Shown piece by piece: positions 2,085 to 39,146 of a stretch of 64,000 nt of DNA. The stretch spans positions 64,001 through 128,000 of the IMG/VR virus record IMGVR_UViG_3300028588_000015. One strand, given 5' to 3'. How positions within the stretch are numbered: the stretch's first letter is position 1; each line of letters starts with the position of its first letter. A program made the position numbers and the translations under genes. The notes below the pieces were generated by a model. The model was not told where the DNA came from and ran no database searches. It was given only the letters and a program-made list of their open reading frames with translations. The stretch comes from a virus (lineage: Duplodnaviria; Caudoviricetes).

Positions 2085-2110
2085 GCGCTCGGCCTGGTCT
2101 CGATGACATG

Positions 2111-2143
2111 AAAAGCCACCCGGTTCGTCCGGGTGGCTTTTTT
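2111..2143 (+). terminator. intrinsic terminator
   Basis: 13-bp perfect stem AAAAGCCACCCGG/CCGGGTGGCTTTT followed by a T-tract. Confidence 0.9.
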
Positions 2144-2218
2144 GCCGCAAACTCAAAACTGAAGAGTGCAATTTTATGTAATGGAGTTTTTCCCTAATCA
2201 ATACAAAGAAAGCGGAGC

Positions 2219-5726: not shown

Positions 5727-5728
5727 TC

Positions 5729-7087: not shown

Positions 7088-7121
7088 TAAAGGAGAGGGG
7101 AACCCCCTCTCCTTTATATGC
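7087..7121 (+). terminator. bidirectional intrinsic terminator
   Basis: 14-bp arms ATAAAGGAGAGGGG/CCCCTCTCCTTTAT. Confidence 0.85.
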
Positions 7122-7193
7122 CGTGTATAAATGACCCAAGTAAAAATCTATTTTATGCCTGATTACCTTTTCCGTTCACCTTTTTTCTAAAGG

Positions 7194-7721
7194 ATGATTG
7201 ACATGCTCAATCAAGAAAAGCTTTTGGTGGCATTGAATGCTTTGAATTCTCCTCCAGAGCCACTTACGCTGGACAGTGTGACGTTCATGCCACCCGTGCC
7301 CTATATTGGCGCAGACCCATGCAATACCAAGATCAGTGTTGTCGCAAAGCCTGCAAAAGGTTATTCGAGTACGCTAGATTTTTATTACCATCGCATTAGT
7401 TTGACGGAAATGGGTAAGCTGGAGTTTTCTTCCATGCAGCCTTACACCGTCGACAATTTGTTATTGATTCTTAATAACATGAACGCGGCGCCGCTTGACA
7501 AGACTGCTGAATTGGCGCTGACCGATTTGGAAGCGATTAAGTTACCGCAGTTTGCCGCGATCGGCGACGCACAAACGCTGGCAATCAAAGCGCACTCTGA
7601 CTCGATTGGTTGGGTCGGTGAAACCGAGATGCTGCTGGCATTCAATTTGCCAGACGTGTCTCGTCTCGAAATATTGTACAATGAAATATTGCCCGCTATC
7701 TTTCCTGCGGCTTCTTCTTAA
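7194..7721 (+). CDS. phiKZ-like virion structural protein (FYYHRI-motif family)
   Basis: NTKI.V.A...KG...FYYHRI.L motif shared with 22423-22953 (NTEI.V.A...RG...WYNRI.L). Confidence 0.6.
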   Translation: MIDMLNQEKLLVALNALNSPPEPLTLDSVTFMPPVPYIGADPCNTKISVVAKPAKGYSSTLDFYYHRISLTEMGKLEFSSMQPYTVDNLLLILNNMNAAPLDKTAELALTDLEAIKLPQFAAIGDAQTLAIKAHSDSIGWVGETEMLLAFNLPDVSRLEILYNEILPAIFPAASS

Positions 7722-7733
7722 AGGGATTTTTTC

Positions 7734-8204
7734 ATGTCCACCGTAACAGAAAGTATTCAGGCGATTATCGATGTCAGTGCCATTGCCGATAAATGGGCCA
7801 ATGGCTCGGCCAGTGAAACTGTGCAGACGAAAGCCGGTTCAATCAAAACATTGGCGGGGATCACTAATAGCGTTGTCGATGATTTGCTGTCGGTGCTGAG
7901 TGGCACCAGTAACTCGCAAGTCGTACTGTCAACTGGGGTCAAAACCTTTTTGACCCAACCCAATAAAGGCTTTAAAGCAGGGATGCTGATCTCGGCCACT
8001 GCGCCGGATGGCAGCTACATGTCGGGCACGGTGATCAGTTACGGCGTCAACACGCTCGTCATGAACGTTACCGCCAACAAAGGCAGCGGCACTTACAGCA
8101 GCTGGCAACTGACCTTCAGTGGACCGGCGGGTAACAGCCCTGAACCAATTCCGGACAACCTCGGTGTTGCCCCGACGTTTGTCACTAAGCTTCCTTGGGA
8201 GTGA
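7734..8204 (+). CDS. small tail-fibre-associated protein
   Basis: N-terminal WANG...VQT..G..KTLAG segment typical of tail-spike head regions, then a TG.KTF...YM.G.V.SY...L..NVT..GSG.Y..W module common in phage tail proteins. Confidence 0.55.
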   Translation: MSTVTESIQAIIDVSAIADKWANGSASETVQTKAGSIKTLAGITNSVVDDLLSVLSGTSNSQVVLSTGVKTFLTQPNKGFKAGMLISATAPDGSYMSGTVISYGVNTLVMNVTANKGSGTYSSWQLTFSGPAGNSPEPIPDNLGVAPTFVTKLPWE

Positions 8205-8206
8205 TT

Positions 8207-10045: not shown

Positions 10046-10047
10046 TC

Positions 10048-10080
10048 CACACTGGGTACGTCAATGTACCCAGTGTGTTT
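10048..10080 (+). terminator. intergenic hairpin (terminator or processing site)
   Basis: 12-bp perfect stem CACACTGGGTAC/GTACCCAGTGTG followed by TTT. Confidence 0.7.
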
Positions 10081-10091
10081 GGAGTGTATAC

Positions 10092-11477
10092 ATGGCACAA
10101 AACACATACGCAGTGACTGCGACTGACAATCAAAAGCGCATTCCCTTGCGTGGCGATATGGATGTTGCATTGAACACCGAGCAATTGCCCACTTTCATGG
10201 TGCAATTTATCACGTCTGACTTTGGTTTTTTCAAGTTCAAAACCACCCTCGGTATCCTGGATTTCGCGGGCAATGTTGTCAGTGAAATTTCCATTGGTGG
10301 GCGCCCCAATACCTACGTGGAGCTGATGTACGACGCCAGTAAATCACTGTGGCGCATTACTGGATCGAACGTTCCTGTCCCACGACGTTTCGCCCCTAAA
10401 TATCCGTGGGAACTCGATATTCTCGCGTCGGTCACGCTGACCGCCACACCGCTTTCCCGCGCGACGGCCGGGGATATTGTGTTGCGGGCAAATGTATTTT
10501 CCTTACTGCCAATTGCCAAGGTCGAATTCTTCTGCGATAACCTGTTGATTGACACGGATGTTTTGCCGCCGTACACGGGCAAGGACACCGTCAATTATAC
10601 CCACAACGGCAACCGTGTCTATACCGCAAAGGTTACAACCTTGCTCGGCATCACGGCTACCAGTGATCCGGTGATTGTGACGGTGAACATTGCAGCGCCA
10701 CCGGTGCCCGATACCACACCGCCCACTGTGGCCTTGAGTGCATCGCGCACAAGTGTTACGAGCGCTGGCACGGTCAAACTGACTGCGACGGCGAGTGATG
10801 ACCGAGCAGTGAGCCGCGTTGAGATCCTGCGGGGCGCTGCGGTGGTGGCCAATCTTACAGCGCCACCCTACACGCTGGACCAACTGTTCTCTTTGGCTGA
10901 GAATGGCACCATCAGCTACAGCGCACGTGCGTACGATGCGGCCAACAATGTCGGGCAAAGTAATGTTGTCGACGTCGTGGTCAACATTGCGCCGCCGGTT
11001 CAAGTGACGCAGATGGTGATCGACCCTGTGACTTTGGCCGAGATGTCAACCGCAGCCCTTGCGACAGCACTGGGTCCTAATCGTACTGAACGCCGTGCGG
11101 CAGTGGCCCAAGCCGTGATCGATGCATTCAAGCCGACTTATGTTCTCTATGTCTATCGCAATGGCGCTACCGTCTTTACCGTCCAGTTTGACAGCAGCTT
11201 GACCGTGGTAACCGAAGGCGTGGGTACGAATGCCGAAGTCTATATTGGCCTTGGCGACATCGTCAGCGGCCAGGCGGCCGTTGCTGCGGATATTAACACC
11301 GGCGCGTGGACGTTCTTGCTCGCTGGCGGTGCCGATGCCCAGCGCACCATCGCAGGTACGGTGGGTCCTGACGGGTCCGGCAAGAACATCACCCTGAGTG
11401 GGTCACCGTTTGTGGGTCAGGAATTTGACGCCACCGTGATGTTCCGGATCGATCGTTCCACTGACGGCCTGGCGTAA
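10092..11477 (+). CDS. virion protein with two bacterial Ig-like domains
   Basis: Two Ig-like repeats (e.g. DTTPPTVALSAS...LTATASDD..V.RVE...PY...NGT..YSARAYDAANNVG.S); N-terminal PLRGDM module. Confidence 0.7.
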   Translation: MAQNTYAVTATDNQKRIPLRGDMDVALNTEQLPTFMVQFITSDFGFFKFKTTLGILDFAGNVVSEISIGGRPNTYVELMYDASKSLWRITGSNVPVPRRFAPKYPWELDILASVTLTATPLSRATAGDIVLRANVFSLLPIAKVEFFCDNLLIDTDVLPPYTGKDTVNYTHNGNRVYTAKVTTLLGITATSDPVIVTVNIAAPPVPDTTPPTVALSASRTSVTSAGTVKLTATASDDRAVSRVEILRGAAVVANLTAPPYTLDQLFSLAENGTISYSARAYDAANNVGQSNVVDVVVNIAPPVQVTQMVIDPVTLAEMSTAALATALGPNRTERRAAVAQAVIDAFKPTYVLYVYRNGATVFTVQFDSSLTVVTEGVGTNAEVYIGLGDIVSGQAAVAADINTGAWTFLLAGGADAQRTIAGTVGPDGSGKNITLSGSPFVGQEFDATVMFRIDRSTDGLA

Positions 11478-11501
11478 CGCTTACCAAAAAAAGGATTGTT
11501 C

Positions 11502-14135
11502 ATGACCATCAAGACTGACCGCGTAACCTCCAATGAGTTGCGCAAAATTCCCACCCAGAAAGGGCAAGCCGAACACCTTGCCCAAGTGTTCGGTAACAGC
11601 CGTGTCTTTGTTATCCGCCAAGATACTTCTCCAACCGCCAAGTTTCCGATGCTGACTGGCGTCGAGAAAATCAACATCACCAACACGGGCGCCCTCGAAA
11701 TTAAAGCGGGCGCAGTATCGAACTTCGGCGTGCTGGCCACTGTCAACAAGTTTACCGCATTCGACGTCAGTGTCGGTAAAAGTGTGTTGCGTGTCTCGGG
11801 CAATGGCCGCTTTTATCAAGGCACGATTGGCACCACGCCCGATTGTGACTTTGTGGTGCCATTCAAGAACTTCGACCCAACCAACGGTTTGGCGTTTGAC
11901 GAAAGCGCTACACTCAGTGCTTACATGTACCGACCTTCAGGTACCGGTACACCGGCGCCTGATCGTACCGACGACATGGCGTACTCAGTCGAAATCTACA
12001 ACCACAGTCAAGGCGGTAAGGTCACACTTGACTGCACACTGACGATCGACACACGCGATGAAAACGTCGTGTTCGAAGACAAGGATCAAGCCCGTAACAT
12101 CGGCGACACCGCCATGTACCGCACATCGCAGGATGTGCAGTGGGGCAAGGTCGGCGTAGGGGCTACGCTGCTCATTTCTGACAAAAGCAACAGCGAGTCG
12201 GGTTTGGCGCCCTTGCAAGAACTCATTATCAATTTCGCCCGCAATGGTGCTTGGGTGTCCTACCCATTCACCACCACGTACCTGCGCAACCTGATGACCA
12301 TGACCTTGCCGCCGTTCAAGGCTATTTTGCGCAATCGGCGTGGTGAAATTCTCAACATCTTCCAGATGCACGGTGGCGAGGCCATTAACGATATGGCGTT
12401 GTTTTCGGGTAATCTTGCCCACGGCGGCCGTACCGAAGTGCGCCCCCTTCAGCCGCGTTTCAATTGCGCAATGGCTTTGTTCTGGGAAAGCGATCGGCCG
12501 GCACTGAATGACATGTACGACACGTACATGCCTGGGTTGGATCAATTCCGTGAATCGATGTGCAAAAACCAGTCGAGTTTTACGGAAACTGAACCATTGA
12601 TCACCGGTGGTTATGGCGGTAACTCGCTCAATGGCTCGAACCACATGTACTATGCAGGCCGTTGGCCAGAAGCCAATGTTTACAAACTAATCAATGACCC
12701 GTTCCTGGATGATTTCATGAACTCCAACGGTAGCTCAGCCTACCGCGCCGGTTGGATTAAAGGGTACGATGGCTCTGAACCTGGTGCGTATGCCGGCAGC
12801 AACTGGTACACGTCCCCTGGCGGTCCGCGTCCAGACCGATCGGTGTACCCATCGGTACTGGCCCTGTGGTTGGACAACCTCAATGGTGTACGCACACAAG
12901 ACAATGTCCCCTACAAGGACATGGCGCATGGTTTCTATCGTGGACTGTATAACCACAGCAACCATTTCATGAATAACGCCAGTACCATGGAAGGCATCAA
13001 CAAGAACGATTTGTTGTATGACCGCGTCACGGCTGAAAATACCTACTACGGCAACGATCCGCGTTCAATCGGGGTATCGTTCAATGGCGACCAGCGCGAT
13101 GGCACCGGTTCCTGGAATATGGACATCGATGGCGACATGATCATGTCCGGTTGGGCCCGCGATCCACTGCACGATCACGCACAGCGCGGTATGTTTGGTA
13201 TGCATGTCCGTAGTCCGGCATATGCACTCTGGGGGCGCTTTGACACCATGAGCGCCATGATGCTGCACCAGTTCCCTGAAACGGGTGTGCGGGGTCAATA
13301 CATGATCCGTACCATGGCTTGGCAGTGGTTCCAAATGCTGGTGGCGTGGAAGAATGCTACCAAACATGCCCGTGGTTTCTCGCGTGCTGAAATGGAAGCG
13401 TATTGGGTGCGGATGCTCGAAGGGGTGTACAAATACCATTACAAACCCGTTCACATCGACATGGAAGACTCGGGTTATGCACGCGGTGTTCGTAACCTCG
13501 GTATTGCCCTGCGTCAGCATGACAATGGCTATGGTTGGGCTGACCCGGGCGGTAAGCTCGGTTATTACATGGCATGGACGCTGCAACTCATGAAGCAAAC
13601 CGGCCTCTGGCATACCTTGATCGCCAAGAACGAGCGTTGCTCGCTGGCTTTGCATGGGCTGGTGCGCGACATGGACACCCATTGCTTCGGTCTGATGACG
13701 CAAGCCAATGGCGCTGTCCCTGGCAATTACCTGTACATCCCTGGTTGGCCGTCATTGGATGTGATTCCCGTGAGCTGGCCGGCATGGTATGCAGAGCACC
13801 TCAAAGACCCGGTGGGTGACAATGACTGGATCTACCGAAGCGGGTATAACGACGATGGTAGTGAGTACCACCGCCGCTACGAACCGAACCAAGATATTGC
13901 GTGGAACCACTTCGAGGCATATGCACGGATGCGCAAAAACTTCTTCCCGGAAATCGTGCACCCGCTGATGGACCAAGCGATCTCGGAATTCGATCGTTAC
14001 CGTGCAGATGTTACCGGTCGCGTCAACGCGGCTGCCACACCCACCGAGAAGCGAAACATGGACTACCCGTTCCGCTCAGCCGGGATTTGCCCGGTCAAGC
14101 CACCGGCACCCGGTAAGTTACGCATGCAGGCATAG
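11502..14135 (+). CDS. large hypothetical protein of the tail cassette (877 aa)
   Basis: RBS AAGGA, ATG at 11502. Beta-rich N half, aromatic-rich helical C half. No family recognised with confidence. Confidence 0.6.
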   Translation: MTIKTDRVTSNELRKIPTQKGQAEHLAQVFGNSRVFVIRQDTSPTAKFPMLTGVEKINITNTGALEIKAGAVSNFGVLATVNKFTAFDVSVGKSVLRVSGNGRFYQGTIGTTPDCDFVVPFKNFDPTNGLAFDESATLSAYMYRPSGTGTPAPDRTDDMAYSVEIYNHSQGGKVTLDCTLTIDTRDENVVFEDKDQARNIGDTAMYRTSQDVQWGKVGVGATLLISDKSNSESGLAPLQELIINFARNGAWVSYPFTTTYLRNLMTMTLPPFKAILRNRRGEILNIFQMHGGEAINDMALFSGNLAHGGRTEVRPLQPRFNCAMALFWESDRPALNDMYDTYMPGLDQFRESMCKNQSSFTETEPLITGGYGGNSLNGSNHMYYAGRWPEANVYKLINDPFLDDFMNSNGSSAYRAGWIKGYDGSEPGAYAGSNWYTSPGGPRPDRSVYPSVLALWLDNLNGVRTQDNVPYKDMAHGFYRGLYNHSNHFMNNASTMEGINKNDLLYDRVTAENTYYGNDPRSIGVSFNGDQRDGTGSWNMDIDGDMIMSGWARDPLHDHAQRGMFGMHVRSPAYALWGRFDTMSAMMLHQFPETGVRGQYMIRTMAWQWFQMLVAWKNATKHARGFSRAEMEAYWVRMLEGVYKYHYKPVHIDMEDSGYARGVRNLGIALRQHDNGYGWADPGGKLGYYMAWTLQLMKQTGLWHTLIAKNERCSLALHGLVRDMDTHCFGLMTQANGAVPGNYLYIPGWPSLDVIPVSWPAWYAEHLKDPVGDNDWIYRSGYNDDGSEYHRRYEPNQDIAWNHFEAYARMRKNFFPEIVHPLMDQAISEFDRYRADVTGRVNAAATPTEKRNMDYPFRSAGICPVKPPAPGKLRMQA

Positions 14136-14148
14136 CTGAATCAACAGC

Positions 14149-14184
14149 GCCAAGGCGGCTATTGTTCGCCGCCTTGGCTTTTTA
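14149..14184 (+). terminator. intrinsic terminator
   Basis: GCCAAGGCGG/CCGCCTTGGC stem plus T5. Confidence 0.85.
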
Positions 14185-14211
14185 AAGAATATATTAACGA
14201 GGCATAAACAC

Positions 14212-17200
14212 ATGAGCGATCCTGTATACAGCACACCAATGGGTGATCCGACTCGTTTGCGTGAGTTGGTGAAGGTGGTAGAAAGTGGCGCCGCCCCGAC
14301 CTGGGTGTATACGCCTGACAGTGGTGCGGATGCACCGGCCTACGGTCAGGGTGGACTTTTCCCAAGTTTTATCAAGGCCGGCACCGATGGCTCCATCGCG
14401 GTGCGCTTCACCGGTTTTCAAAACGCCACCATTGCGTTCATTTCCGACAAGACCAAGCGTTGGGATGGTGCGACGCCGTGGCGGATCGATACGTACCAAG
14501 CGGGGCACGCCTATAAGCCTGTACTGTACGGTAACTATCTGACCGATGGCCCAAATGTCAATGCGGAAGGCGGCGACATCGTACAAATGCGCCGCACCGG
14601 CACGACGGTTTATGCAGAAGTGTCGAAAGACAATGGCGCCACCTGGATCAACATTTACACTTGGCCGAATGTTGATCCGGACATGGATCTGTACGGTGAA
14701 GTGGGCGTGTTCTATTGGATGAGCCGCGCTGAGGGGGTATGGGCCAAAGGCTTGGATTCCCAAGTCAATCCAGTCGCGCCCACGCCCCCTGTGCTTGCTT
14801 CGGCCATTGCCTCAAACGTCGCCGGCATGGGACGGGTGGTGCTCAATTTCAATGAACCCATCGACAAGAGCAAGATTCCGGACAAGTCGGCGTTCAGTGT
14901 ATCAGGGCATACCGTCGCTGCGGCTACGAATATGGCAAGCTTGGCAAACGCTATCGCTCTCGACGTCACGGGTTTGATTGCCTTGGGTGAGGTTGTCACG
15001 GTCACCTACGTTGCGCCAGCCACCAACAGCATTATCGACCTCGACGGCACGCCCGGTAACAGCTTTGGCCCAGTGGTGGCAATCAATAACGTACCGCGCC
15101 CGCTTGGTGTTCGCCGACGCCTCGGTTATGTGCCGCCCGGTATCGCAGAAGGCGGGGTGGCGCCAAATTGGACCTATGCCAATACCGATGGCAATTACAC
15201 GACCTGGGCCAACACTGCCCAGGCACTGAATCGCATGCCAGCAGGTCGCGATGGATCGTTCGAACTTGTCATTGGCAACTACGCCAATGGTTCGTTCATT
15301 GGCCTCACGGCAAGTTCCCAAGTCAACACGCTCCCTGAATATTCTCTGAATATTTACCAGTTCGGCTACCCCTACACACTGTCTGCCGGTAGCGATGCGG
15401 CAGCAGTTGCTGTTTTGGCGGCGCCCGGCGATATCTGTCGTATGCGTCGTTTGGGTAACCGCATTTATGCAGAAGTGTCGAAAGACAATGGCGACAGTTA
15501 CACGGTGGTTGGCACCTGGTCGAACACACCCCAAGTTGATCTGTACGGCGAAGTTTCGTTGGCCTTCAATACGAACATCAGTGCAGTTTATAGCACTGGT
15601 TTCGTGGCAGCGACGGCTTACGACGTGTTTGTCGATAAAGCCCGAGACTTGGATCTGCGCGGAAAAAGCTGGACAGCAGAACAAGTCAGTTATCTGAACA
15701 CTTCGGTTGCCACCTTGGCGCCGGATGGCAGTGGCGGGTTGTACAAGCAATCCAATGCAGCCACCCTCGGTCTGGCGTGGACGCAGCGTAACGAGGACGC
15801 TGGTTCGGCGGTTTTCTTCACGCACGATGGCGGTAGTTACGCTGCCATTCCGCAATTGGTGGTGGCCAGCAACTTGCTGGAAACTTATACCGACGGTATC
15901 CGATGCTCGTTCACTGACGGTGGATTCTTGCTGGAAGAAATCACCAATGGTGCCGTAGGCGCCATGGTTTCCAATACGCTCGCCTTGGTGGCGGGCGAAA
16001 AGTATTGTTTGGAAATTGGCCAAGCCGATACGGTCAGTGACAAAGATTTTGTTTTGCGTATCAGCACCGTGGTCGCAGGTGAGCGCGGTTTGCTGGTGGC
16101 ATACGCCTTGCTCAATGCGCGAAACGCTCATCCGGGTAAGAACGCAGGGCTGCTGTCGAGCGCGGTCGATAGCGCTTTCGATACCGTCACGCGGATCGAA
16201 ACGCTGGCGCAGACAATCCCCGTGCGGATGGTCCCATCAAAGCTGCTCATCGAGGCGGCCTCGAATCAAGTGACGCAAGGATTTTCGCAACGTTTGACGG
16301 TACGGACTGACCAGTCTCTGGCGGCTTTTGAAAGCGTGGAAGTCAATATCACCGACAACGCTGGTGGCCAATTTGATGTGGCCAACTTCACGCTCTCGGG
16401 TACCAACCAGCTCCAGCAGGTTAACTGGCGGCCGAGCAACGTGATCGGTGCCCGTACGCTCACGGCCCAGCAAGTCACCGGTCTTGACGTGGACGACGGT
16501 TCGCTGCATTTCGAAGTGACCGTACCGATTCCGGCCAGCGCACTTGTTTACACCGGCGAAAAGGAAGTCGAACTAGGAAAGACGCTGAAGTTTGTGCTGT
16601 CTACCAACCAGCCACTGCTGGTGGGCGACACCGAAGCCTACACCGTGTCCCTCGTCGGTACTGGCAGTGTGGCACCAATGTCCGGTACCCTGAACAATGG
16701 GGACCTCAGTCAGGAACTGGAATTCACACCGCAAACGGTGGGTGTGACGAAGATTAAGTTCACCCCCATGGGTTCGCCTGTCCTTCCGGCCTTGGAAGTG
16801 CAAGTGACGGTGAAGCCCCGTTCACCGACGTTTGTCAAGGGTATCAACGTCTACGAAGTCGGCATTGGTCACCAGTTTGCAACTGCCAAACAGGCGTCCG
16901 CCTACATCGCCGACAAGAAGTTGGTCGATACCCAGGCAAAAGTCTATTTTGAGTACTACGGTGATCATTATTTTGATACCGACTTTGTTGCGGGTAACAC
17001 CAGCCAAGAGTACAACATCACTCACCGGCCGGCTGCGGGTGAAGGTTACCTGGACAAAGCTACTTCAGGTTTGTTCCATTATCCGGATGCTGGTACTGAG
17101 TTAACCTTCCCGGGTTCGTATGTCACTCTGCAACGCGGCACGGTGATGGAAAACTTCCGGATGAAGTTTGAAAACAATACGACACTGCTGTTCTCGCCCA

Positions 17201-20073
17201 GCAACGGCGCTGGCGGCCAAGCGGCAGACGCATACCTGCGCAATAACCGTATCCTGGTTCAGCGGCCGGGGACCAGTGAAGTGATCCAGTCCGGCGAGTA
17301 CGCCATCAACTGCCACGTACAAAACAATCTGTTCTTGTTGCAAACCCCGGGTATCTATATCAACCTGCGTGATAGCGCGGGTAATGTAACCGGTAACACA
17401 GTTATCGCGCAGGGAGCAGCATTGGGCAGTGCTGTATTTGCCATGAGTGGTAACTTCGATTACAACAATACGAAAGTGCAGAACAACGTCTTTATTGACG
17501 TAGGGGCAGTGCCGTTTAACATCGATGTGAACCGCCCAGCACCTGAACAGGTGTACAGTAACAACTTTACCAACGCAGCGATTAGCGCAGCGGTGGCGCC
17601 AGTGTACACAGTCAATACCGTCGCACCGTTTGTTGCAGATAAAGCAACCGATCTGCGGCCAGTGGTCAACGGTCCTTTGTTCGGAAAAGCGTCTGCGTAT
17701 GCGACTTCGACGATCGACGGCGCCGGCCAAAACCGGGGCTTTGCACCGGACGCAGGTGCATTCCAAGCAATTCCGGCCAGCAAATTGCCCATCGTTAAAT
17801 CGACTGGGCAAACCGTCAGCGGGCAGTATGTCCGTTATACGGTCAGTGTGCTCAACGAGATTGGTTCGTTGACGGCGCGCATGATCCCCGATGCTGTTGC
17901 GCCCGATGGCGCCCAAGAAGTCGGACCTCTGCCGTTTACCGTGAATGGCGGAACAGCGTATGTGGATATTCTGGTACCAAAGGCGGGTCTGTATGCCCCG
18001 GCAGAATTTGTCGCCAGCAATGATGGTGGCGTCGTCAAGTCGTATTCCGACCTGCCGCTGCGTGTGGTACCTTTGAAGTCGAGCGCAACATTCGACGATT
18101 TTGTCGGGGTGGCCGATGCTGTCGTGGCGGCTGGTCGACCGACGTTGCCGTTCTTCGGCACTGTCGTTGACTCCGGTGTAAATATCGTCAAGCCATTGGT
18201 GATCTTGTCAGTTGACAATGGTGACTTTTTCGCCGATGGCAGCGTTACGGTTACCGCAAGTGTTGCCAGCCCGATCGGGGTCGACCGGGTTGAACTTCTG
18301 CGTAACGGCGTGAAAGTCGACACGAAAACGCAGGCACCGTACGCGCTCACCCAGAACTTGACGCGCGCTGATAACGGTACTGTCGTCTACAGTGCCAAAG
18401 CGTACGACACCCAAGGTAACTTTACGGTAAGTGAAAACTTCCCAATCTATGTGAGGATACCCGCCGCTGGTGCCACGGTACCCACGGTCACGAGCATCGC
18501 ACTTGTCCCACCGAGTTACGATGGCGATGTGGCGCATCTTGAGATTAAGTTCTCGGAAGCGATGAATACCGCGCGTGAATTCGATTACAGCGGTGTTTGG
18601 AACTTCGGTATCGATGCTCACTTTACCACCGGCTTGACTGCATTCACGGATGCGACGACGCTGCGGATGAATTACGAATACGTGGCCCCCGTGTTGCCCG
18701 GGGAGCAGGCGTATTTCAGCTACCGTAAGGATTTTCTGCACGGCTGGCGTAGTGCGGCTGGGGTGTTGGTGGAATCGTTCGATGGGTTCCCTGTCGTAAA
18801 TAATCTGCCTGAACAAGGATCGCCCGGTGCGTATGAAACATTCACCAATGTGGCCGATGGGGCGAACGTGGCCAGTGTCGGTTGGGATGGCGGAGCGGAA
18901 GATACGCAACAAGTGTGGCATGCTTCTACGCAACTGGTGCGCGCGGCAGGCGCAGGTGGCGCGTATCCGGCCACCTCGGGACAAATCTTCGCCAGCTTCC
19001 GTCGGAAAGGACATGTTGCGCCTGGATGGGGGTATCGCGATGGCACCGGTGTGGCAGCGTTCTTTAAGTTAACTGCCGCTGGTCAGTCGCCTTACGGCAT
19101 CGCGATCATGTGTGACGATGGCAATGACGGCATCAGTAGTTTCGGCCTGGTTGCAGTGCGGGTTGAGGTGACGCCGGACGGCACGCTGCAATTCCGTCAC
19201 GCTAACAATCGTCGGCCGCCGCTCGCTTACCCGCCGAAAACCGGCGCAGCGCTCGATGTACTGCAAGAGTATGCGCTGGAGCTGGCCCGTGTTACCACGC
19301 AAGCTGAAACAACCTTTGCAATGCGGTTGTGGAAAGCCACCAATGGCGTTCGCACTAGCCTGATCAATTCGGCGTCCTGCGTAGTGAACTATAAGGCCAT
19401 CTTTAACGATGCGCCCATCGCGAAGCTGTATGTCACGGATGTGTCTGCACCACCGGCACTTCTGACCCGCGTGGAAGAGATCACGAATGCGTTCTCGGCG
19501 CGCGAAGTGGTGTCGCTGCTTCCTACCGGTAACCGCTCCACCTTGACCTCCATCCGTAACATTGTTGCGACCGGTTCCGGTGCTGACATGAGTTACGCGG
19601 GTAACGGCGCGGCGCTGTCGAGCCGGCCCGGCGGTATTTTCGCCATGCGTTTCTTAAATGTAGCGCAGCAATCGGGTATTTTTGCAGATGGCGGCGTATC
19701 GGCAGTAGTGGGTGCGGTAGTGGATAACATCTACCTGGGCGCATTCATCACGCCGTCGGCTGGTGTGTTCCCAACCGAACCTGTGGCCGCAGATAAGATG
19801 CACCTCGCTATCTGCGCGCCTGCCATCGGGCAAGCGTACCAGATTTACACGGAAGGCCGGAATCGTTTGCCCACTAAAAAGATGTTGGTGGCAGAGGGTG
19901 ACGTCATGCGTGTGCGTACTTGCGGTCTGGAGGTCTTCTTTGAAGTGAAGAAGAATGATGTCTGGACGCGCATCTTCCGTATCCGCAATGCAGCAGGTGG
20001 TCTGACCGACTATTACACTGCGGCGCAGTTGTTGTTGCCCGGTAATTCGGCAGTATCGGCGATTTACCAGTAA
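14212..20073 (+). CDS. 1953-aa modular adhesin / tail-fibre-like protein
   Basis: Three copies of a beta-sandwich motif (D..(Q/R)MRR.G...YAEVSK.NG...DLYGEV), SwmB-like domains (VVLNFNEPID...F.V...VTVTYVAP...DLDG), an Ig-like domain and an Asn-rich beta-helix segment. Confidence 0.7.
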   Translation: MSDPVYSTPMGDPTRLRELVKVVESGAAPTWVYTPDSGADAPAYGQGGLFPSFIKAGTDGSIAVRFTGFQNATIAFISDKTKRWDGATPWRIDTYQAGHAYKPVLYGNYLTDGPNVNAEGGDIVQMRRTGTTVYAEVSKDNGATWINIYTWPNVDPDMDLYGEVGVFYWMSRAEGVWAKGLDSQVNPVAPTPPVLASAIASNVAGMGRVVLNFNEPIDKSKIPDKSAFSVSGHTVAAATNMASLANAIALDVTGLIALGEVVTVTYVAPATNSIIDLDGTPGNSFGPVVAINNVPRPLGVRRRLGYVPPGIAEGGVAPNWTYANTDGNYTTWANTAQALNRMPAGRDGSFELVIGNYANGSFIGLTASSQVNTLPEYSLNIYQFGYPYTLSAGSDAAAVAVLAAPGDICRMRRLGNRIYAEVSKDNGDSYTVVGTWSNTPQVDLYGEVSLAFNTNISAVYSTGFVAATAYDVFVDKARDLDLRGKSWTAEQVSYLNTSVATLAPDGSGGLYKQSNAATLGLAWTQRNEDAGSAVFFTHDGGSYAAIPQLVVASNLLETYTDGIRCSFTDGGFLLEEITNGAVGAMVSNTLALVAGEKYCLEIGQADTVSDKDFVLRISTVVAGERGLLVAYALLNARNAHPGKNAGLLSSAVDSAFDTVTRIETLAQTIPVRMVPSKLLIEAASNQVTQGFSQRLTVRTDQSLAAFESVEVNITDNAGGQFDVANFTLSGTNQLQQVNWRPSNVIGARTLTAQQVTGLDVDDGSLHFEVTVPIPASALVYTGEKEVELGKTLKFVLSTNQPLLVGDTEAYTVSLVGTGSVAPMSGTLNNGDLSQELEFTPQTVGVTKIKFTPMGSPVLPALEVQVTVKPRSPTFVKGINVYEVGIGHQFATAKQASAYIADKKLVDTQAKVYFEYYGDHYFDTDFVAGNTSQEYNITHRPAAGEGYLDKATSGLFHYPDAGTELTFPGSYVTLQRGTVMENFRMKFENNTTLLFSPSNGAGGQAADAYLRNNRILVQRPGTSEVIQSGEYAINCHVQNNLFLLQTPGIYINLRDSAGNVTGNTVIAQGAALGSAVFAMSGNFDYNNTKVQNNVFIDVGAVPFNIDVNRPAPEQVYSNNFTNAAISAAVAPVYTVNTVAPFVADKATDLRPVVNGPLFGKASAYATSTIDGAGQNRGFAPDAGAFQAIPASKLPIVKSTGQTVSGQYVRYTVSVLNEIGSLTARMIPDAVAPDGAQEVGPLPFTVNGGTAYVDILVPKAGLYAPAEFVASNDGGVVKSYSDLPLRVVPLKSSATFDDFVGVADAVVAAGRPTLPFFGTVVDSGVNIVKPLVILSVDNGDFFADGSVTVTASVASPIGVDRVELLRNGVKVDTKTQAPYALTQNLTRADNGTVVYSAKAYDTQGNFTVSENFPIYVRIPAAGATVPTVTSIALVPPSYDGDVAHLEIKFSEAMNTAREFDYSGVWNFGIDAHFTTGLTAFTDATTLRMNYEYVAPVLPGEQAYFSYRKDFLHGWRSAAGVLVESFDGFPVVNNLPEQGSPGAYETFTNVADGANVASVGWDGGAEDTQQVWHASTQLVRAAGAGGAYPATSGQIFASFRRKGHVAPGWGYRDGTGVAAFFKLTAAGQSPYGIAIMCDDGNDGISSFGLVAVRVEVTPDGTLQFRHANNRRPPLAYPPKTGAALDVLQEYALELARVTTQAETTFAMRLWKATNGVRTSLINSASCVVNYKAIFNDAPIAKLYVTDVSAPPALLTRVEEITNAFSAREVVSLLPTGNRSTLTSIRNIVATGSGADMSYAGNGAALSSRPGGIFAMRFLNVAQQSGIFADGGVSAVVGAVVDNIYLGAFITPSAGVFPTEPVAADKMHLAICAPAIGQAYQIYTEGRNRLPTKKMLVAEGDVMRVRTCGLEVFFEVKKNDVWTRIFRIRNAAGGLTDYYTAAQLLLPGNSAVSAIYQ
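14609..14638 (+). repeat. 30-bp exact direct repeat, copy 1 (copy 2 at 15464-15493)
   Basis: TTTATGCAGAAGTGTCGAAAGACAATGGCG read at both positions. Confidence 0.9.
15464..15493 (+). repeat. 30-bp exact direct repeat, copy 2
   Basis: Identical to 14609-14638. Confidence 0.9.
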
Positions 20074-28868: not shown

Positions 28869-30491
28869 ATGAATACCATGCACCAGTACTACGACCTCAT
28901 CCGGAAAGTCATCACCGAAGGTAACATCCGTACCGACCGCACCAACACCGGTACCATTTCGTTATTCGGCCCGCAAATCGAATTCAACCTCGCCGACGGC
29001 TTCCCGCTCGACCCCAGCCGCCAAGTGTTCCTGCGCGGCGATCTGGAAGAACTCTTCTGGATGCTGCGTGGCTCGACTAACAATAACGAACTGACGGCCA
29101 AGAACGTCAACATCTGGACCCAGTGGGCAATCCGCCAAGAGCACGTAGAATACACCCAAGCCGAGCGTCTTGCCATGCTTCGCGAGAAGTTCATGCAAGA
29201 CACCGGCGATGGCGCCGCTGGCCAGACGGTTTATTTGTCAACGATGGCCGAAGCGATCGATATCGACAAGATGCTCGACGGTCACGGTATTCCGAAGGAA
29301 AAATACGCCAAGGAGCAGTTGGCCATGCTCTTCCAGAAGCTAGTGGAAAAGAACGGTTCCAAGGAAATTGCTCTATCCCACTACGACGCGATGTTCAAAG
29401 GCGGTGTGAGCCAAGAGCAGTTCAACACCATCATGAAGAACTACGGCATCCCCGGCGCCCCGAAGATCGGCGCCCTCGGTCCCATTTATGGCGAGCAGTG
29501 GTGTAAGTGGCCTGACCCAGAGAAAGACGAGACCAAGTTCTTTTCAGTACCAGAGCGCGTCCAGATGGCCGAAGATTATCTGGCCAGCGGCGCGGCTGAA
29601 AAGTTCACGCAGGCAGACTTGGACAGCGTCAAGGACCAGTACCAACAATACCTCGATGAGAAAAGTAATGGCGCCACTGGCTCGACGATGGAAGAACTGC
29701 TGCACGATGACATCGATACTTGGGGTATCCCCAACAAGGTCACGCGACGTACCACCCACAACCAAATCGCCAAGCTGATCGAGGACCTAAAGAAGCGACC
29801 CAATTCGCGGCGTCACATTGTCTCGACCTGGAACGTACCCTACCTGCCGGACGAATCGCTGTCGCCCCAGCAGAACATCATGCGTGGTAAAATGGCACTG
29901 GCGCCATGTCACACCCTCTTCCAGTATTACGTGGAAGGACGCGCGTCCATGGAAATGTGTAAGGAACTTACGACAGAGCAACTGGACGAGTACATGCAAT
30001 ATTGCAGAGAAAACGAGCTAGAAGTTCATGCTTTCCAATCGGATCAGCGCGGGTTTATCGACGATCCGAAGTACTGGGAAGTAATTTTCAATTTCGACAA
30101 GAAGAAGTTGGTCAATGACTGGTTCAAAGAACGTGGCATCAAAACCCAGAAGCTGTCCTGCAAGTTGTACCAGCGTTCGTGCGATCTCCTCGTCGGTGGC
30201 GCCTTTAACATTGCCGCCTATGCTGCACAAACCATGATGGTCGCCCAGTGCGTCGACATGGTCCCGGGCCGGTTCATCCATACATTCGGCGACGTCCACA
30301 TCTACAAGGACCACATGTTGCCTAACTCGGATGGCGACTCTGTGTTCACGCAGTTGGAACGTGAAGTGCGCGCGATGCCGGTCCTCTTGATTAACCCGGA
30401 AGTGAAAGACATCTTCGCCTTCAAGTACGAAGACTTCAAGTTGACCGATTATAACCCCCACAAAAAGATCAACTACAAAGTCGCGGTTTAA
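28869..30491 (+). CDS. thyA: thymidylate synthase with large helical insertions (540 aa)
   Basis: RTDRTNTGT, EELFW.LRG, NIW.QWA, GPIYG.QW, SRRHIVSTWN, catalytic LAPCH, LYQRSCDL..G..FNIAAY, FGDVHIYKDH. Confidence 0.95.
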   Translation: MNTMHQYYDLIRKVITEGNIRTDRTNTGTISLFGPQIEFNLADGFPLDPSRQVFLRGDLEELFWMLRGSTNNNELTAKNVNIWTQWAIRQEHVEYTQAERLAMLREKFMQDTGDGAAGQTVYLSTMAEAIDIDKMLDGHGIPKEKYAKEQLAMLFQKLVEKNGSKEIALSHYDAMFKGGVSQEQFNTIMKNYGIPGAPKIGALGPIYGEQWCKWPDPEKDETKFFSVPERVQMAEDYLASGAAEKFTQADLDSVKDQYQQYLDEKSNGATGSTMEELLHDDIDTWGIPNKVTRRTTHNQIAKLIEDLKKRPNSRRHIVSTWNVPYLPDESLSPQQNIMRGKMALAPCHTLFQYYVEGRASMEMCKELTTEQLDEYMQYCRENELEVHAFQSDQRGFIDDPKYWEVIFNFDKKKLVNDWFKERGIKTQKLSCKLYQRSCDLLVGGAFNIAAYAAQTMMVAQCVDMVPGRFIHTFGDVHIYKDHMLPNSDGDSVFTQLEREVRAMPVLLINPEVKDIFAFKYEDFKLTDYNPHKKINYKVAV

Positions 30492-36321: not shown

Positions 36322-37080
36322 ATGGAAAAGAAGAAGGTTCCTTTGCTGTTGTTCTCGGGCGGTCTCGATTCGTCCTACATGTTGCAAACGTATCTGGAAA
36401 AGGGTGACGTTGAAACACTTTACGTCAAAGGAGCACAGCATCCAGACAAAGTCACGCTCGAATTGCGGGCTCGCACGCGCATCATTGCCGAACTGGAAAA
36501 GAAGACCGGCAATAGGGTTCTCAAGGACCGTGTCGTTAATCTCCACGATTTGTTCGAAGGCGACATGCCTGACCGTGCTTTTGTTCAACCCATCACCTGG
36601 ATCACCGGTGCGCTCCAAGTATCGAACGGAGAGAAGCATGCTCACCTTGCTATTGGCTATGTCAGTGGCGACCAAGTTTCTTCCGAAATTCCGTTCATAC
36701 ACGCTGCATGGGAAAACATACAGCACTTCACGAAGCAAAATACTATCCCGGTTGAGTTTCCATTGAAGGTCACCACCAAGCTGATGATCCTCGATAACAT
36801 CTGGCCTGAAGTGGTTCAGCACGTCTGGGTCTGTGAAATGCCCGAGCGGCGCGGTGACCGTATCGACGGCGTGGGTAGTAAAAAAAGACCAAAATCATGC
36901 GAATGGTGCGCAGCATGTCTTACACAGGCTGGCACCTTGGCGATGTGGAAACAGAAACACGGTGAGCCATACAGCCATAGATTCATCGCGCGGCTGCGTT
37001 GCAATAAGTTAAGAGAAGAAGATGCGTTAAAACGAGTACTACTGAAAGAAACTATCCCTCCAAGAGAAAATTCAAGATGA
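36322..37080 (+). CDS. QueC-like PP-loop ATP pyrophosphatase
   Basis: LLFSGGLDSS PP-loop, IGY..GD, FPL...K..I, and a four-Cys Zn site (WVC...C..C..C), in QueC order. Confidence 0.8.
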   Translation: MEKKKVPLLLFSGGLDSSYMLQTYLEKGDVETLYVKGAQHPDKVTLELRARTRIIAELEKKTGNRVLKDRVVNLHDLFEGDMPDRAFVQPITWITGALQVSNGEKHAHLAIGYVSGDQVSSEIPFIHAAWENIQHFTKQNTIPVEFPLKVTTKLMILDNIWPEVVQHVWVCEMPERRGDRIDGVGSKKRPKSCEWCAACLTQAGTLAMWKQKHGEPYSHRFIARLRCNKLREEDALKRVLLKETIPPRENSR

Positions 37081-37404: not shown

Positions 37405-37818
37405 ATGGACGATTCCTTGATTGTGCGTGAAATCTTCGCCCACCGCGTCGACGATCACGTGTCGCCGCTCAAGATCGAGTGCCTTGGGGTTGCGGCACAG
37501 GGCGGCGCACAGAACTATTACCGGATCACCGGTTTTAATTACGCAGCCGACGGCAAAACGGTCAATGCCCTGCCAATCTCTTTTCAGATTGGCAACCCCG
37601 AGGTGTTGGGCGTCAACGGTGTGACCATGGAAGCACTGCTGGCGGTGGTCATTGACCGCCTGTCAGGATTGCAAAAAGGGATGTACCCGTGTAGCGAAAA
37701 CAATATGGCTTTGGGGCATCTCGAAGCCAGCATGACTTACCTGCACGCACGGTCGCGCCGTATTCAACAGACGCTGTTTGAAATTGAAGCCATGCCTGAA
37801 CTGCCAGAAAAGAATTGA
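37405..37818 (+). CDS. Tad1-like anti-defence sponge protein
   Basis: GGA..Y.I...I.FQ.G....NGV..E.LL..V.DRL...Q.G.Y...EN..AL.HLE.....L..R matches the recalled Tad1 pattern (GPGGAYHEY..., [52 protein letters not shown]). Confidence 0.75.
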   Translation: MDDSLIVREIFAHRVDDHVSPLKIECLGVAAQGGAQNYYRITGFNYAADGKTVNALPISFQIGNPEVLGVNGVTMEALLAVVIDRLSGLQKGMYPCSENNMALGHLEASMTYLHARSRRIQQTLFEIEAMPELPEKN

Positions 37819-37924
37819 TGTAAATTATTACATTAATTTCCCTATGGTATGTTTAGTACTGGGTAACTCATTTTCCCCAACCTGAATAAAGGGTAACCGA
37901 TGAACAAACTCGAATAACCAAAAA

Positions 37925-38528
37925 CTATCTGATGATCCGTGAAAACCGGAGCCACGTGCTGAGCACTGTGCGAGGTGTCACCGTATCCAGCGGTGTGGTA
38001 CGTGGTTGGGATAATACCCCATGAAACCCGAGGGCTCCAGAAGTTGTTCTGGGATTGCTTCTGCCGGTTGACAGACCCTTCACGGAGTCTAACAACTGAG
38101 TGTGTGTGCCTCTGGTCATAGAACGTGACGTTTTTGGGTTACGGTACGTCGCATTTTCCTTTCCTAGGAAAAGATACCATGCAAGCTTCCAACTTGTGAA
38201 AACCGTACGGCCAAACTTTCTGGGTGGAACCAGTCATGTTTGGCAAGTTGTCCACATTCCCGTGGCGGCCCTCCCTTGGGCAGCGGACAGCGGGAAAGAG
38301 CATATTACCCCGGCCCGTGTGGAGTGTGGGTGGTTGGTGCCGCGGCCTGCGGCCAGTGCTCTGTGTGCAGCCTGTAACACCTTTCTCGTGTTGGCTGAAA
38401 ACAGCCGGCCTCTTTGGAACCCGCCAAAGATGATTCGCTCGATATTGGGATACCGACGGGATGTCGGGGTCGGGGGAATGCGTGTGAGGGTGTTACGGGA
38501 TGTACAGTGTTTTCATGGATCGTGATAG
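37925..38528 (+). ncRNA. candidate large ornate non-coding RNA (~600 nt)
   Basis: End-pairing helix 37932-37946/38509-38523 (15 bp, two GU), an 8-bp long-range pseudoknot 37961-68/38354-61, and more than 12 further stems. No credible long ORF; own terminator. Confidence 0.7.
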
Positions 38529-38545
38529 GGATGTCCGATCTTGAC

Positions 38546-38572
38546 AGTCACCCTTCGGGGTGACTTTTTTCC
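38546..38572 (+). terminator. intrinsic terminator closing the candidate ncRNA
   Basis: AGTCACCC-TTCG-GGGTGACT-TTTTT. Confidence 0.9.
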
Positions 38573-38594
38573 GACTACTAAAGAAAACGATACC

Positions 38595-39146
38595 ATGAAA
38601 CATTTACGATTGGCATTGGAGCATAACTCACCATTAGCTAACATGGAAGAGGTGAGGGCGGAACCAGAAGGAAATATGTGGTTTCGACACACCTCGCCGT
38701 ATGCGCTGGCTGAATTGAAACCGTTGAGTTACGATGAATTGGAAAAGGTTCGGCCCGATTACGATGTTGAGGCACGTAAAAGGACAGAAAAGAAATACCA
38801 TCGCTTGGCACACACGAATCCCGACACGAGTTTTCTTTACGCCACGATGGTGGGATTTCATCAGATGGAAGATGTGCTGTCTTACCCAGGTTACACATAT
38901 TTCTTCAAACTGGAACTATGGCAATTGCCCGAATGTATCTTTGATGTCGTCGATCAAAAGAAGTGGATGGAGCCGACCAAAGGTATTGCTGGATACACGC
39001 TGGCACGAGACATTTGGACGCGGCATCGGCGAGAATTTAAACCGTACGAGGAAGAAGGTCTCGGCACTATTGAACCACGTATCGAGCTTATCATTCCGTA
39101 TTCGGTAAAACCCAAACTCTATGTCCCGCAAGAAGAAGACCGTTAG
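38595..39146 (+). CDS. hypothetical protein, possible virion component
   Basis: ATG at 38595 (the track start lies in the terminator); N-terminal LRLALE contains an A-x-E motif. Confidence 0.65.
   Translation: MKHLRLALEHNSPLANMEEVRAEPEGNMWFRHTSPYALAELKPLSYDELEKVRPDYDVEARKRTEKKYHRLAHTNPDTSFLYATMVGFHQMEDVLSYPGYTYFFKLELWQLPECIFDVVDQKKWMEPTKGIAGYTLARDIWTRHRREFKPYEEEGLGTIEPRIELIIPYSVKPKLYVPQEEDR

What the first reader, a model, noticed from the sequence alone, without database searches (positions are those of the whole stretch)
37925..38572. Large, end-paired, pseudoknotted non-coding RNA (~600 nt) in a jumbo phage
Seen: in a genome packed with + strand genes, ~780 nt (37819-38594) has no RBS-led ORF of normal codon bias. 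Its two ends pair: ATGATCCGTGAAAAC (37932-46) with GTTTTCATGGATCGT (38509-23), 15 bp with two GU pairs, extended by CTAT/ATAG (37925-28/38525-28). Inside are AGCCACGTGC/GTACGTGGTT (37950-59/37998-38007, two GU), whose enclosed GAGCACTG (37961-68) is the exact complement of CAGTGCTC (38354-61), giving a long-range pseudoknot. Other stems: CACCG/CGGTG, CCAGAA/TTCTGG, TTTTCCT/AGGAAAA, CAACTTG/CAAGTTG beside GCCAAAC/GTTTGGC and CTGG/CCAG, GTAACACC/GGTGTTAC (38374-81/38489-96), GGCTG/CAGCC, TCTTTGG/CCAAAGA, CCGAC/GTCGG. GTGAAAACC occurs twice (37939, 38196). A UUCG terminator follows. GU pairs point to selection at the RNA level. Established: size and complexity are in the range of large ornate RNAs such as ROOL, GOLLD and OLE, some of which are phage-associated. 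Inference: a new or highly diverged large structured RNA or ribozyme. I could not match it to any known class.
Basis: partly seen in the sequence, partly recalled or inferred. Interest (0 to 1): 0.92.

Follow-up and report, generated by a model that had tools for sequence, protein, structure and literature searches.

The report
New large folded RNA of jumbo phages
The gene-free stretch is a real gene for a roughly 650-nucleotide, intricately folded, abundantly made non-coding RNA that matches no catalogued RNA family and recurs in a small group of nucleus-forming jumbo phages, three of them cultured, so its unknown job can now be tested at the bench.

Summary
Window 37924-38571 (+) has no Rfam match, here or in any homologue. 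It has no conserved ORF and no codon-like substitution pattern on either strand.

I found homologues in 12 other sequences:
- four IMG/VR jumbo-phage contigs and three Logan/JGI contigs of the same clade;
- Burkholderia phage FLC9 and three FLC9-like IMG/VR contigs;
- Xanthomonas phages RTH11 and LucasX.

They are 50-66% identical within the clade, and conserved blocks alternate with helices that keep pairing through compensatory changes:
- 3' domain: 90% of cells paired against 73% in shuffles; 26 of 41 pairs compensatory; slid controls 33-46%.
- G-U outnumbers A-C 138 to 29, so the + strand is the RNA.

Two leaf-litter metatranscriptomes hold 100%-identical contigs only at 38130-38491 and nothing in 25 kb of flanking phage genes.

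The 15-bp "end helix" and the long-range pseudoknot occur only in this window and compete with covarying helices. Instead, ACUAU/AUAGA (37924-28/38118-22) closes a separate 5' domain, which one relative lacks.

Function is unknown. The best guess is a stable trans-acting scaffold RNA.

This scan has noted other large jumbo-phage RNAs on other DNA. A sequence look-up found no relatives of this one among them.

The parts
37848..37858 (+). Conserved upstream word TATGTT(T)AGTA, 36-76 nt before the 5' box in all full-length members of the window's clade. A possible promoter or transcript start (inference only).
   Evidence: Alignments. It is the only exact copy in the 64-kb window, so it is not a general promoter word.
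37886..37917 (+). ATAAAGGG (ribosome-binding-like) followed by a 5-codon mini-ORF (ATG 37900 to TAA 37917) that ends 11 nt before the 5' box. Five-codon equivalents with different codons occur in L008 and L015.
   Evidence: Read directly from the alignment. Not tested further.
37924..38122 (+). 5' domain (about 200 nt), closed by ACUAU/AUAGA (37924-28/38118-22). Its elements:
- invariant CUGAUGA (37929-35);
- a small hairpin CCG/CGG with loop UGAAAAC (37937-49);
- helix 37951-61/37997-38007;
- hairpin 37979-84/37990-95 with conserved loop UAYCCAG;
- hairpin GGG..CCC 38008-19;
- helix 38027-37/38104-15;
- GAAG/CUUC 38038-44/38057-63;
- helix 38064-70/38093-99.
   Evidence: RNAalifold on five full-length sequences gave 30 of 71 pairs with compensatory changes. 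All 7 pairs of 38064-70/38093-99 covary. The domain is missing from relative L038.
38136..38362 (+). Middle domain. Its elements:
- hairpin 38153-61/38166-73;
- hairpin 38181-85/38193-97 with loop CUUCCAA;
- a junction made of GUACG/UGUCC (38205-09/38249-53, UUGUAC in relatives) with an invariant G-U, GCCAA/UUGGC (38210-14/38240-44) and an inner hairpin at 38218-36;
- a sub-domain closed by AGAGC/GCUCU (38297-301/38358-62) that holds hairpins 38303-36 and 38338-54.
   Evidence: Model R3 on 12 sequences gave 89.5% of cells paired against 74% in shuffles (0 of 500 reached it) and 26-45% in slid controls.
38364..38506 (+). 3' domain. A 24-pair helix (38364-89/38481-506, including GTAACACC/GGTGTTAC) encloses:
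- hairpin GGCUG/CAGCC;
- hairpin 38409-17/38424-32 with the conserved loop GAACCCG;
- helix 38438-46/38466-75, which holds the conserved UGGGAUA and hairpin CCGAC/GUCGG.
   Evidence: Model R1 on 10 sequences gave 90.4% of cells paired against 72.7% in shuffles, 26 of 41 pairs compensatory, and 33-46% paired in slid controls.
38513..38544 (+). Local 3' hairpin. Its sequence varies but it is present in all seven clade sequences.
   Evidence: local folds of -9.5 to -12.1 kcal/mol in every sequence.
38546..38571 (+). Intrinsic terminator, AGUCACCC-UUCG-GGGUGACU plus a U tract. It is conserved, with compensatory changes, in all members of the window's clade.
38130..38491 (.). The part recovered as 348- and 360-nt contigs, 100% identical, from two metatranscriptomic runs.
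   Evidence: There were no contigs in the other 5.1 kb laid around it, nor in window 1-20000.
37405..37818 (+). Upstream neighbour, a Tad1-family (Thoeris anti-defence 1) protein. It is context only and not part of the RNA.
   Evidence: Sequence matches to solved structures: Tad1 entries at E 1e-6 to 7e-6 and gp184 at 2.7e-11. PHROG 2428.

Best explanation
Window 37924-38571 (+ strand) is an independent gene for a stable, highly structured non-coding RNA of about 650 nt, belonging to a previously uncatalogued family.

Shown:
- The RNA has three modules in series: a 5' domain closed by its own helix, a middle domain built round an invariant junction, and a 3' domain built on a 24-pair helix. 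A small hairpin and an intrinsic terminator follow.
- The family occurs once per genome in a patchy subset of phiKZ-like (Chimalliviridae-type) jumbo phages.
- The RNA accumulates far above the neighbouring mRNAs in environmental RNA samples.

Inferred: it acts in trans as a folded scaffold. It may bind phage or host proteins, or it may assemble with itself as the large ornate phage RNAs ROOL and GOLLD do. It is less likely to be a cis regulator or a messenger.

My confidence that it is a genuine structured RNA gene is about 0.93. My confidence in the scaffold mechanism is about 0.4. The figure given for this entry is a blend of the two.
For: Not a known family:
- No Rfam match in the window or the homologues.

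Homologues:
- L004, L003 and L017.
- IMG/VR contigs G001, G002 and G004.
- FLC9: R1 E 8e-5, R2 E 9e-9, plus collinear nhmmer blocks, all inside an annotated gap.
- RTH11 and LucasX, both inside annotated gaps.
- FLC9-like contigs L037 to L039.

Covariation:
- 64 of 113 RNAalifold pairs are compensatory on an alignment that was not fitted to any structure.

Strand: 138 G-U cells against 29 A-C cells.

Not coding:
- Stops in all frames in homologues.
- No three-base periodicity (p 0.93), whereas the neighbouring gene in the same genomes gives p 1e-20.

Expression:
- RNA-library contigs lie only on the element.

Independent unit:
- It has its own conserved terminator.
- The flanking genes differ between relatives.
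- There is one copy per genome.
Against: - No experiment and no bound partner is known, so the scaffold mechanism is an analogy.
- The RNA-library evidence is from assembled contigs of two small runs of one habitat. It gives no strand, no ends and no level.
- In the FLC9 group there is no terminator and the RNA abuts the ribosome-binding site of the next gene. That arrangement would also fit a cis or processing role.
- Covariation rests on 10-13 sequences from about 7 lineages, without a phylogeny-aware test such as R-scape.
- No conserved self-complementary loop was found that would point to self-assembly.
Confidence: 0.6

Rival explanations
1. Counter-defence decoy or sponge RNA. An abundant folded RNA soaks up a host RNA-binding or RNA-targeting immune or regulatory factor. 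It sits among accessory, anti-defence genes.
For: - It lies directly after a Tad1-family gene in the window and in L004/G002.
- In FLC9 a cyclophilin-Tad1 fusion and a cpYpsA SLOG protein lie within 1.5 kb.
- A QueC-like gene lies upstream in the window's clade.
- The RNA is abundant relative to the phage's mRNAs.
Against: - The Tad1 gene is absent next to the RNA in L008, L015, RTH11 and LucasX, so the linkage is partial.
- No repeated short binding motif is shared across the three groups. The UGGGAU and CCC loops are confined to the window's clade.
- An elaborate, conserved three-dimensional-looking architecture is more than a simple sponge needs.
Confidence: 0.2
2. A large ribozyme, or an RNA that processes itself. 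For example, the 5' domain might direct cleavage that releases the middle and 3' core.
For: - The size and the invariant junction nucleotides, including a G-U conserved in 12 of 12 sequences.
- The 5' domain is a separable module: it is absent in L038, and both RNA-library contigs start at 38130-38132, just after it.
- The invariant CUGAUGA word recalls the hammerhead core.
Against: - There is no hammerhead or other ribozyme match.
- The sequence after the small hairpin is GCC or GUC, not the GAAA a hammerhead needs.
- Contig ends are not RNA ends. The 3' ends, at 38477 and 38491, fall inside a helix strand, so they are assembly breaks.
Confidence: 0.1
3. A cis-acting element, meaning a giant leader or intercistronic structure that controls translation, stability or processing of the adjacent mRNA.
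For: - In FLC9, L037, L038 and L039 the RNA starts at the stop codon of one gene and ends about 25 nt before the start of the next, with no terminator.
- A short ORF with a ribosome-binding-like word precedes the RNA in three members of the window's clade.
- The first codons of the downstream genes are conserved (MxHLRxAL) although the proteins differ.
Against: - In the window's clade, and in RTH11 and LucasX, a strong conserved terminator separates the RNA from the next gene.
- The downstream gene differs between relatives.
- RNA-library contigs cover the RNA but not the neighbouring genes.
Confidence: 0.1
4. Not an RNA gene at all, but a decayed or unrecognised protein gene, or a DNA-level element such as an origin or packaging site.
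For: - Open frames of 100-167 codons exist on the minus strand in single sequences.
- Translations of those frames show weak similarity to one another.
- Fold z-scores are similar on both strands.
Against: - No frame stays open across homologues, and indels are not multiples of three.
- There is no codon periodicity (p 0.93), against p 1e-20 for a real gene in the same genomes.
- The excess of G-U over A-C pairs is specific to one strand.
- RNA libraries hold the element alone.
Confidence: 0.03

Closest known systems
ROOL (Rfam RF03087) and GOLLD (RF01998) large ornate RNAs
   Same: All are 500-800 nt and multi-domain, with heavy covariation. All are carried by phages or prophages as stand-alone genes of unknown function. 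GOLLD is reported to rise during lytic growth (from my own knowledge), and both form RNA-only cages in cryo-EM (PMC12286853, abstract).
   Different: - There is no sequence or covariance-model similarity.
- No tRNA genes lie nearby: none in the 64-kb window.
- The hosts here are nucleus-forming jumbo phages of Burkholderia, Xanthomonas and similar bacteria.
- No evidence for self-assembly was obtained.
OLE RNA (RF01071)
   Same: A large, highly structured and abundant non-coding RNA that works as a ribonucleoprotein scaffold.
   Different: OLE is chromosomal in extremophilic Firmicutes and has dedicated protein partners encoded next to it. Here there is no model match and no conserved protein neighbour.
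Hammerhead ribozyme
   Same: The invariant CUGAUGA is followed by a short hairpin, as at the hammerhead core between stems I and II.
   Different: The GAAA after stem II is absent, there is no cleavage-site context, and no Rfam hammerhead match appears at any threshold.
Bacterial RNase P RNA
   Same: Two short words resemble its most conserved regions: GAAAGCCGG (like GAAAGUCCGG) and AGAACCCG. This resemblance is recalled from memory.
   Different: - There is no RNase P model match.
- Here AACCCG is a hairpin loop closed by a covarying stem, not a strand of the P4 helix.
- The two words cannot pair with each other.
Other large jumbo-phage RNAs noted earlier by this scan (e1-121328, e1-147449)
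   Same: Uncatalogued, folded RNAs of 0.5-0.65 kb in jumbo phages.
   Different: Those are multi-copy, lie in RaK2/121Q-type enterobacterial phages, and also occur in bacterial islands. This family is single-copy. It was not found in bacterial genomes with two patterns. A sequence look-up found no shared words with other genomes.

Membership tests
ROOL / GOLLD / OLE (Rfam large ornate RNAs) | A match to the family covariance model | tested here: not met
   No match at gathering score in the whole window. None at E up to 10 in 37700-38700. None at E up to 5 in seven homologous loci.
ROOL / GOLLD | Frequent placement next to tRNA genes in phages or prophages | tested here: not met
   ARAGORN found no tRNA in the 64-kb window.
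ROOL / GOLLD / OLE | Homo-oligomeric RNA-only assembly | not testable with these tools
   This needs native gels, SEC-MALS or cryo-EM of the transcript.
Large structured non-coding RNA (generic) | Base pairs maintained by compensatory substitutions across homologues, above controls | tested here: met
   About 90% of cells are paired, against 73-74% in shuffles and 26-46% in slid controls. 26 of 41 and 9 of 15 pairs show two-sided changes.
Large structured non-coding RNA (generic) | No protein-coding signal on either strand | tested here: met
   with the positive control.
Large structured non-coding RNA (generic) | Transcribed as a discrete RNA | tested here: inconclusive
   Contigs from two metatranscriptomes cover only 38130-38491. 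Strand, ends and size are not shown.
Hammerhead ribozyme | CUGANGA, stem II, GAAA, stem III and a UH cleavage site | tested here: not met
   CUGAUGA and a short hairpin are present, but GCC or GUC follows instead of GAAA. There are no Rfam hammerhead hits.
RNase P RNA | Model match, and a P4 helix formed between conserved regions I and V | tested here: not met
   There is no model match. AACCCG lies in a hairpin loop.
Group I / group II intron | Model match, and exon continuity across the element | tested here: not met
   No Rfam match. The upstream gene ends with its own stop codon, and the flanking genes differ between relatives.
Intrinsic terminator (3' end of the unit) | A G+C-rich hairpin followed by a U tract | tested here: met
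   38546-38565 plus TTTTTT. It is conserved with compensatory changes.

The most novel reading that the evidence does not exclude
A new class of large RNA specific to nucleus-forming jumbo phages that does chemistry or builds an architecture of its own. It could be a new ribozyme, or an RNA-only or RNA-protein assembly needed during infection. It would have a dispensable 5' module and a conserved core of about 360 nt. It could be studied in the cultured phages FLC9, RTH11 and LucasX.
Probability: 0.2. Interest if true: 0.9.

Novelty: new variant of a known kind. Interest (0 to 1): 0.78.

Why it matters
Bacterial and phage RNAs longer than 500 nt with rich conserved structure are few: OLE, GOLLD, ROOL and a handful more. 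Each has turned out to be unusual, and the recent cage-like assemblies are an example.

This family adds one in a lineage whose biology is already exceptional, with a protein-shelled phage nucleus and transcription separated from translation. No such RNA turned up in my literature searches for this lineage.

Three members sit in cultured phages of plant-pathogen hosts, so deletion, RNA-seq, pull-down and cryo-EM are all feasible now. The modular build, with an optional 5' domain and a conserved core, gives an immediate design for constructs.

Tried and rejected
DNA and protein searches that led nowhere:
- blastn and megablast of the region and of 16 kb around it against 50,697 phage records found no match.
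- Close-relative scans of viral contigs with the two flanking proteins found nothing.
- The downstream protein has no relatives in cultured phages.

Pattern hits rejected as chance:
- L010/G003: only the pattern word aligns.
- L016: no model match.
- L018: the match lies inside a 196-codon ORF of a bacterial-looking contig next to a QueA-like gene.
- L034 to L036, from bacterial MAGs: no model match at the pattern site.

Genomes where the models found no copy:
- R2 and R3 found none in Xoo-sp14, RSL2, RP31, Eowyn or SL2; R3 alone (the only model run on them) found none in FLC8, FLC4-3B or phiHQ. Filters were strict, so weak copies could have been missed. LucasX was in fact missed by R3 and found by blastn and R1.

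Readings rejected:
- Hammerhead, RNase P and intron readings (see the membership tests).
- Coding on either strand.

Tools that did not help:
- mafft-qinsi could not run because MXSCARNA is missing.
- A naive all-against-all helix scan was too noisy to use.

Full report
**Where it lies.** The window is bases 64001-128000 of a 225.5-kb IMG/VR virus record. Its virion proteins place it among phiKZ-like jumbo phages. The nearest cultured relative is Burkholderia phage FLC9, at only 43% amino-acid identity, followed by Xanthomonas phages Xoo-sp14, RTH11 and LucasX at 34%. Genes run on the + strand. Between a 137-aa gene (37405-37818) and a 183-aa gene (38595-39146) lies a 776-nt gap.

**Checking the observation.**
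- The gap is richer in G+C than its flanks: 0.60 at 38200-38500 against about 0.46 downstream.
- It ends in a textbook terminator.
- Its predicted fold is about 3 standard deviations better than shuffles, but equally so on the opposite strand. Thermodynamics therefore cannot decide.
- Rfam 15 gives nothing at gathering scores for the whole window. At E up to 10 for the region it gives only three chance-level hits.

**Finding relatives.**
- DNA searches of cultured phages found nothing.
- The downstream protein had two relatives in the large protein collection. Their contigs, L003 and L004, carry the same non-coding stretch upstream.
- Invariant blocks from that alignment served as DNA patterns. 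These recovered three more jumbo-phage contigs of 219-224 kb (G001, G002, G004) and a JGI contig, L017.
- Several pattern hits were chance and were discarded after inspection. They are L010, L016, L018 (inside a bacterial ORF) and L034 to L036.
- Within this clade the RNAs are 50-66% identical. That range is ideal for covariation analysis.

**Reaching cultured phages.**
- A profile of the clade gave weak but collinear hits inside a 508-bp unannotated gap of FLC9.
- Two covariance models then hit the same gap in the right order. R1 covers the 3' domain and R2 the middle junction, with E 8e-5 and 9e-9.
- R2 and R1 likewise hit, in order and at the right spacing, an 850-bp gap of Xanthomonas phage RTH11.
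- blastn from RTH11 found the copy in LucasX.
- A pattern from the junction found three FLC9-like IMG/VR contigs, L037 to L039.
- There is one copy per genome.
- The models found none in Xoo-sp14, RSL2/FLC8, RP12-like, Eowyn or phiKZ-genus genomes. The family is therefore patchy within these phages. Strict filters mean that weak copies could have been missed.
- Two pattern scans of 185,579 bacterial and archaeal genomes gave no true copy.

**It is an RNA with a conserved fold.**
- On a plain MAFFT alignment, RNAalifold predicts 113 pairs, of which 64 keep pairing through changes on both sides.
- The 3' domain was aligned to model R1 with 10 sequences. 90.4% of cells pair, against 72.7% when partners are shuffled (0 of 500 shuffles reach it). 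With the partner slid by 1-3 columns only 33-46% pair. 26 of 41 pairs show two-sided changes.
- The middle junction, with 12 sequences, gives 89.5% against 74.0% in shuffles and 26-45% in slid controls. One G-U pair is invariant in all 12.
- The 5' domain, with five sequences, has 30 of 71 pairs with two-sided changes.
- Near-identical pairs also show clean double changes. Examples are L004 against L009 and RTH11 against LucasX.
- Across the predicted pairs there are 138 G-U cells but only 29 A-C cells. The + strand is therefore the functional strand.

**It is not coding.**
- The 141-aa ORF and every other frame are interrupted in the homologues, and gaps are mostly not multiples of three.
- Substitutions show no three-base rhythm: 88, 84 and 84 variable columns by phase, p 0.93.
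- The neighbouring 161-aa gene, in the same set of genomes, gives 63, 38 and 112, p 1e-20.
- The weak similarities between antisense translations are what homologous DNA gives in any frame.

**It is made as RNA.**
- Two metatranscriptomic runs from leaf litter, of about 100 million letters each and from different samples and studies, each hold one contig. The contigs are 360 and 348 nt, 100% identical, and lie at 38132-38491 and 38130-38477.
- Those runs hold nothing else in the 5.5 kb laid around the element, and nothing in 20 kb of structural genes. DNA contamination would not be confined in this way.
- These are assembled contigs. Strand, true ends and abundance are not shown, and the 3' ends fall inside a helix strand, so they are assembly breaks.

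- Most local stems he listed are right.
- The RNA is not closed by its two ends. The 5' CUAU pairs with AUAG at 38118-21. This pairing covaries: U-A to C-G, and A-U to G-C. It closes a 200-nt 5' domain.
- The 15-bp end helix is strong in the window (dG -26.5, z -4.7) but absent in the four other full-length sequences (z -1.9 to +1.5). Its 3' strand belongs to a local hairpin found in all seven sequences.
- The pseudoknot partner CAGUGCUC overlaps GCUCU. GCUCU pairs with AGAGC at 38297-301, and that pairing changes in step: AGAAC/GUUCU and AGAC/GUCU in relatives.
- The 5' domain is separable. L038 lacks it entirely while keeping the rest.
- Elements shared by all three phage groups:
  - the 5' word CUGAUGA (GUGAUGA in RTH11 and LucasX) with its small hairpin;
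  - a GGGG-UAA-CCC hairpin;
  - the junction CGURCGG ... AAGUUGUAC;
  - the long helix GCAGCCU ... GGRRUGC.
- Within the window's clade, two C-rich loops (UAYCCAG and GAACCCG) are complementary to two conserved UGGGAU tracts. These could form tertiary or intermolecular contacts. The variation available is too small to test this (inference).

**Context.**
- The upstream gene is a Tad1-family anti-Thoeris protein. A QueC-like gene and a small ORF precede it.
- The Tad1 gene is missing beside the RNA in L008 and L015, and the downstream gene differs between relatives.
- In FLC9 the RNA lies between two other genes, without a terminator. It is 1.4 kb from a cyclophilin-Tad1 fusion and next to a SLOG-domain protein.
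- In RTH11 and LucasX none of these neighbours recur.
- The RNA therefore sits in variable accessory regions, with only a loose link to anti-defence genes and no fixed protein partner.

**What it most likely does.**
- Shown: it is a conserved, abundant, independently terminated structured RNA.
- Inferred: it works in trans as a folded scaffold, in the manner of the large ornate phage RNAs.
- The rivals, with my odds, are a counter-defence decoy (0.2), a ribozyme or self-processing RNA (0.1) and a cis element (0.1). The cis reading is most plausible for the FLC9 arrangement.
- Literature searches found no report of this RNA in the papers on LucasX or the FLC phages, or in reviews of jumbo phages.

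**Verdict.** This is a real, new family of large structured phage RNA. It is filed as a new variant of the known kind 'large ornate non-coding RNAs of phages', and its membership in every named family was tested and not met.

Noticed in passing
window 37405-37818: The 137-aa protein just upstream is a Tad1-family (Thoeris anti-defence 1) homologue. It matches several solved Tad1 structures at E about 1e-6 and a 'gp184' chain at 2.7e-11.
   Followed up: partly
window 37886-37917; L008 and L015 equivalents: A ribosome-binding-like ATAAAGGG and a five-codon mini-ORF (MNKLE here, MKQNY and MNYTR in relatives) end 9-11 nt before the RNA's 5' box. The length is conserved but the codons are not.
   Followed up: no
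window 38572-38625; L003 390-430 and 780-815; L004, L008 and L015 equivalents: The leader and first codons after the terminator are conserved (TTTTTTCCG..CTAC..AAGGA..ATG, protein start MxHLRxAL) although the downstream proteins differ. They are 183 aa here and a different gene in L008 and L015. L003 has an extra 125-aa gene with a DxDGT motif typical of HAD phosphatases inserted there.
   Followed up: no
L038 (IMGVR_UViG_3300044683_000167), locus 5825-6800, minus strand: This FLC9-like copy of the RNA lacks the whole 5' domain (no CUGAUGA box) but keeps the middle and 3' domains.
   Followed up: partly
window 28869-30491: The thymidylate synthase is 540 aa, with the Pfam match split into two stretches. 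An insertion of roughly 200-260 aa interrupts the enzyme, and its nature was not examined.
   Followed up: no
L002 (FLC9) 1211-1759 and 3377-4393: Near the FLC9 copy, gp134 is a cpYpsA SLOG-family protein, and gp131 is a cyclophilin fused to a Tad1-like C-terminal part.
   Followed up: partly
window 36322-37080: A QueC-like protein (PHROG 1550; the Pfam QueC match is below threshold) is conserved upstream of the RNA in the window's clade (L008, L009, L015).
   Followed up: partly
L027 (RTH11) 1990-2012; L033 (LucasX) equivalent: An identical A+T-rich word TACGTATTTTTTTACAT lies about 10 nt before the RNA's 5' box in both Xanthomonas phages. It is a candidate promoter.
   Followed up: no
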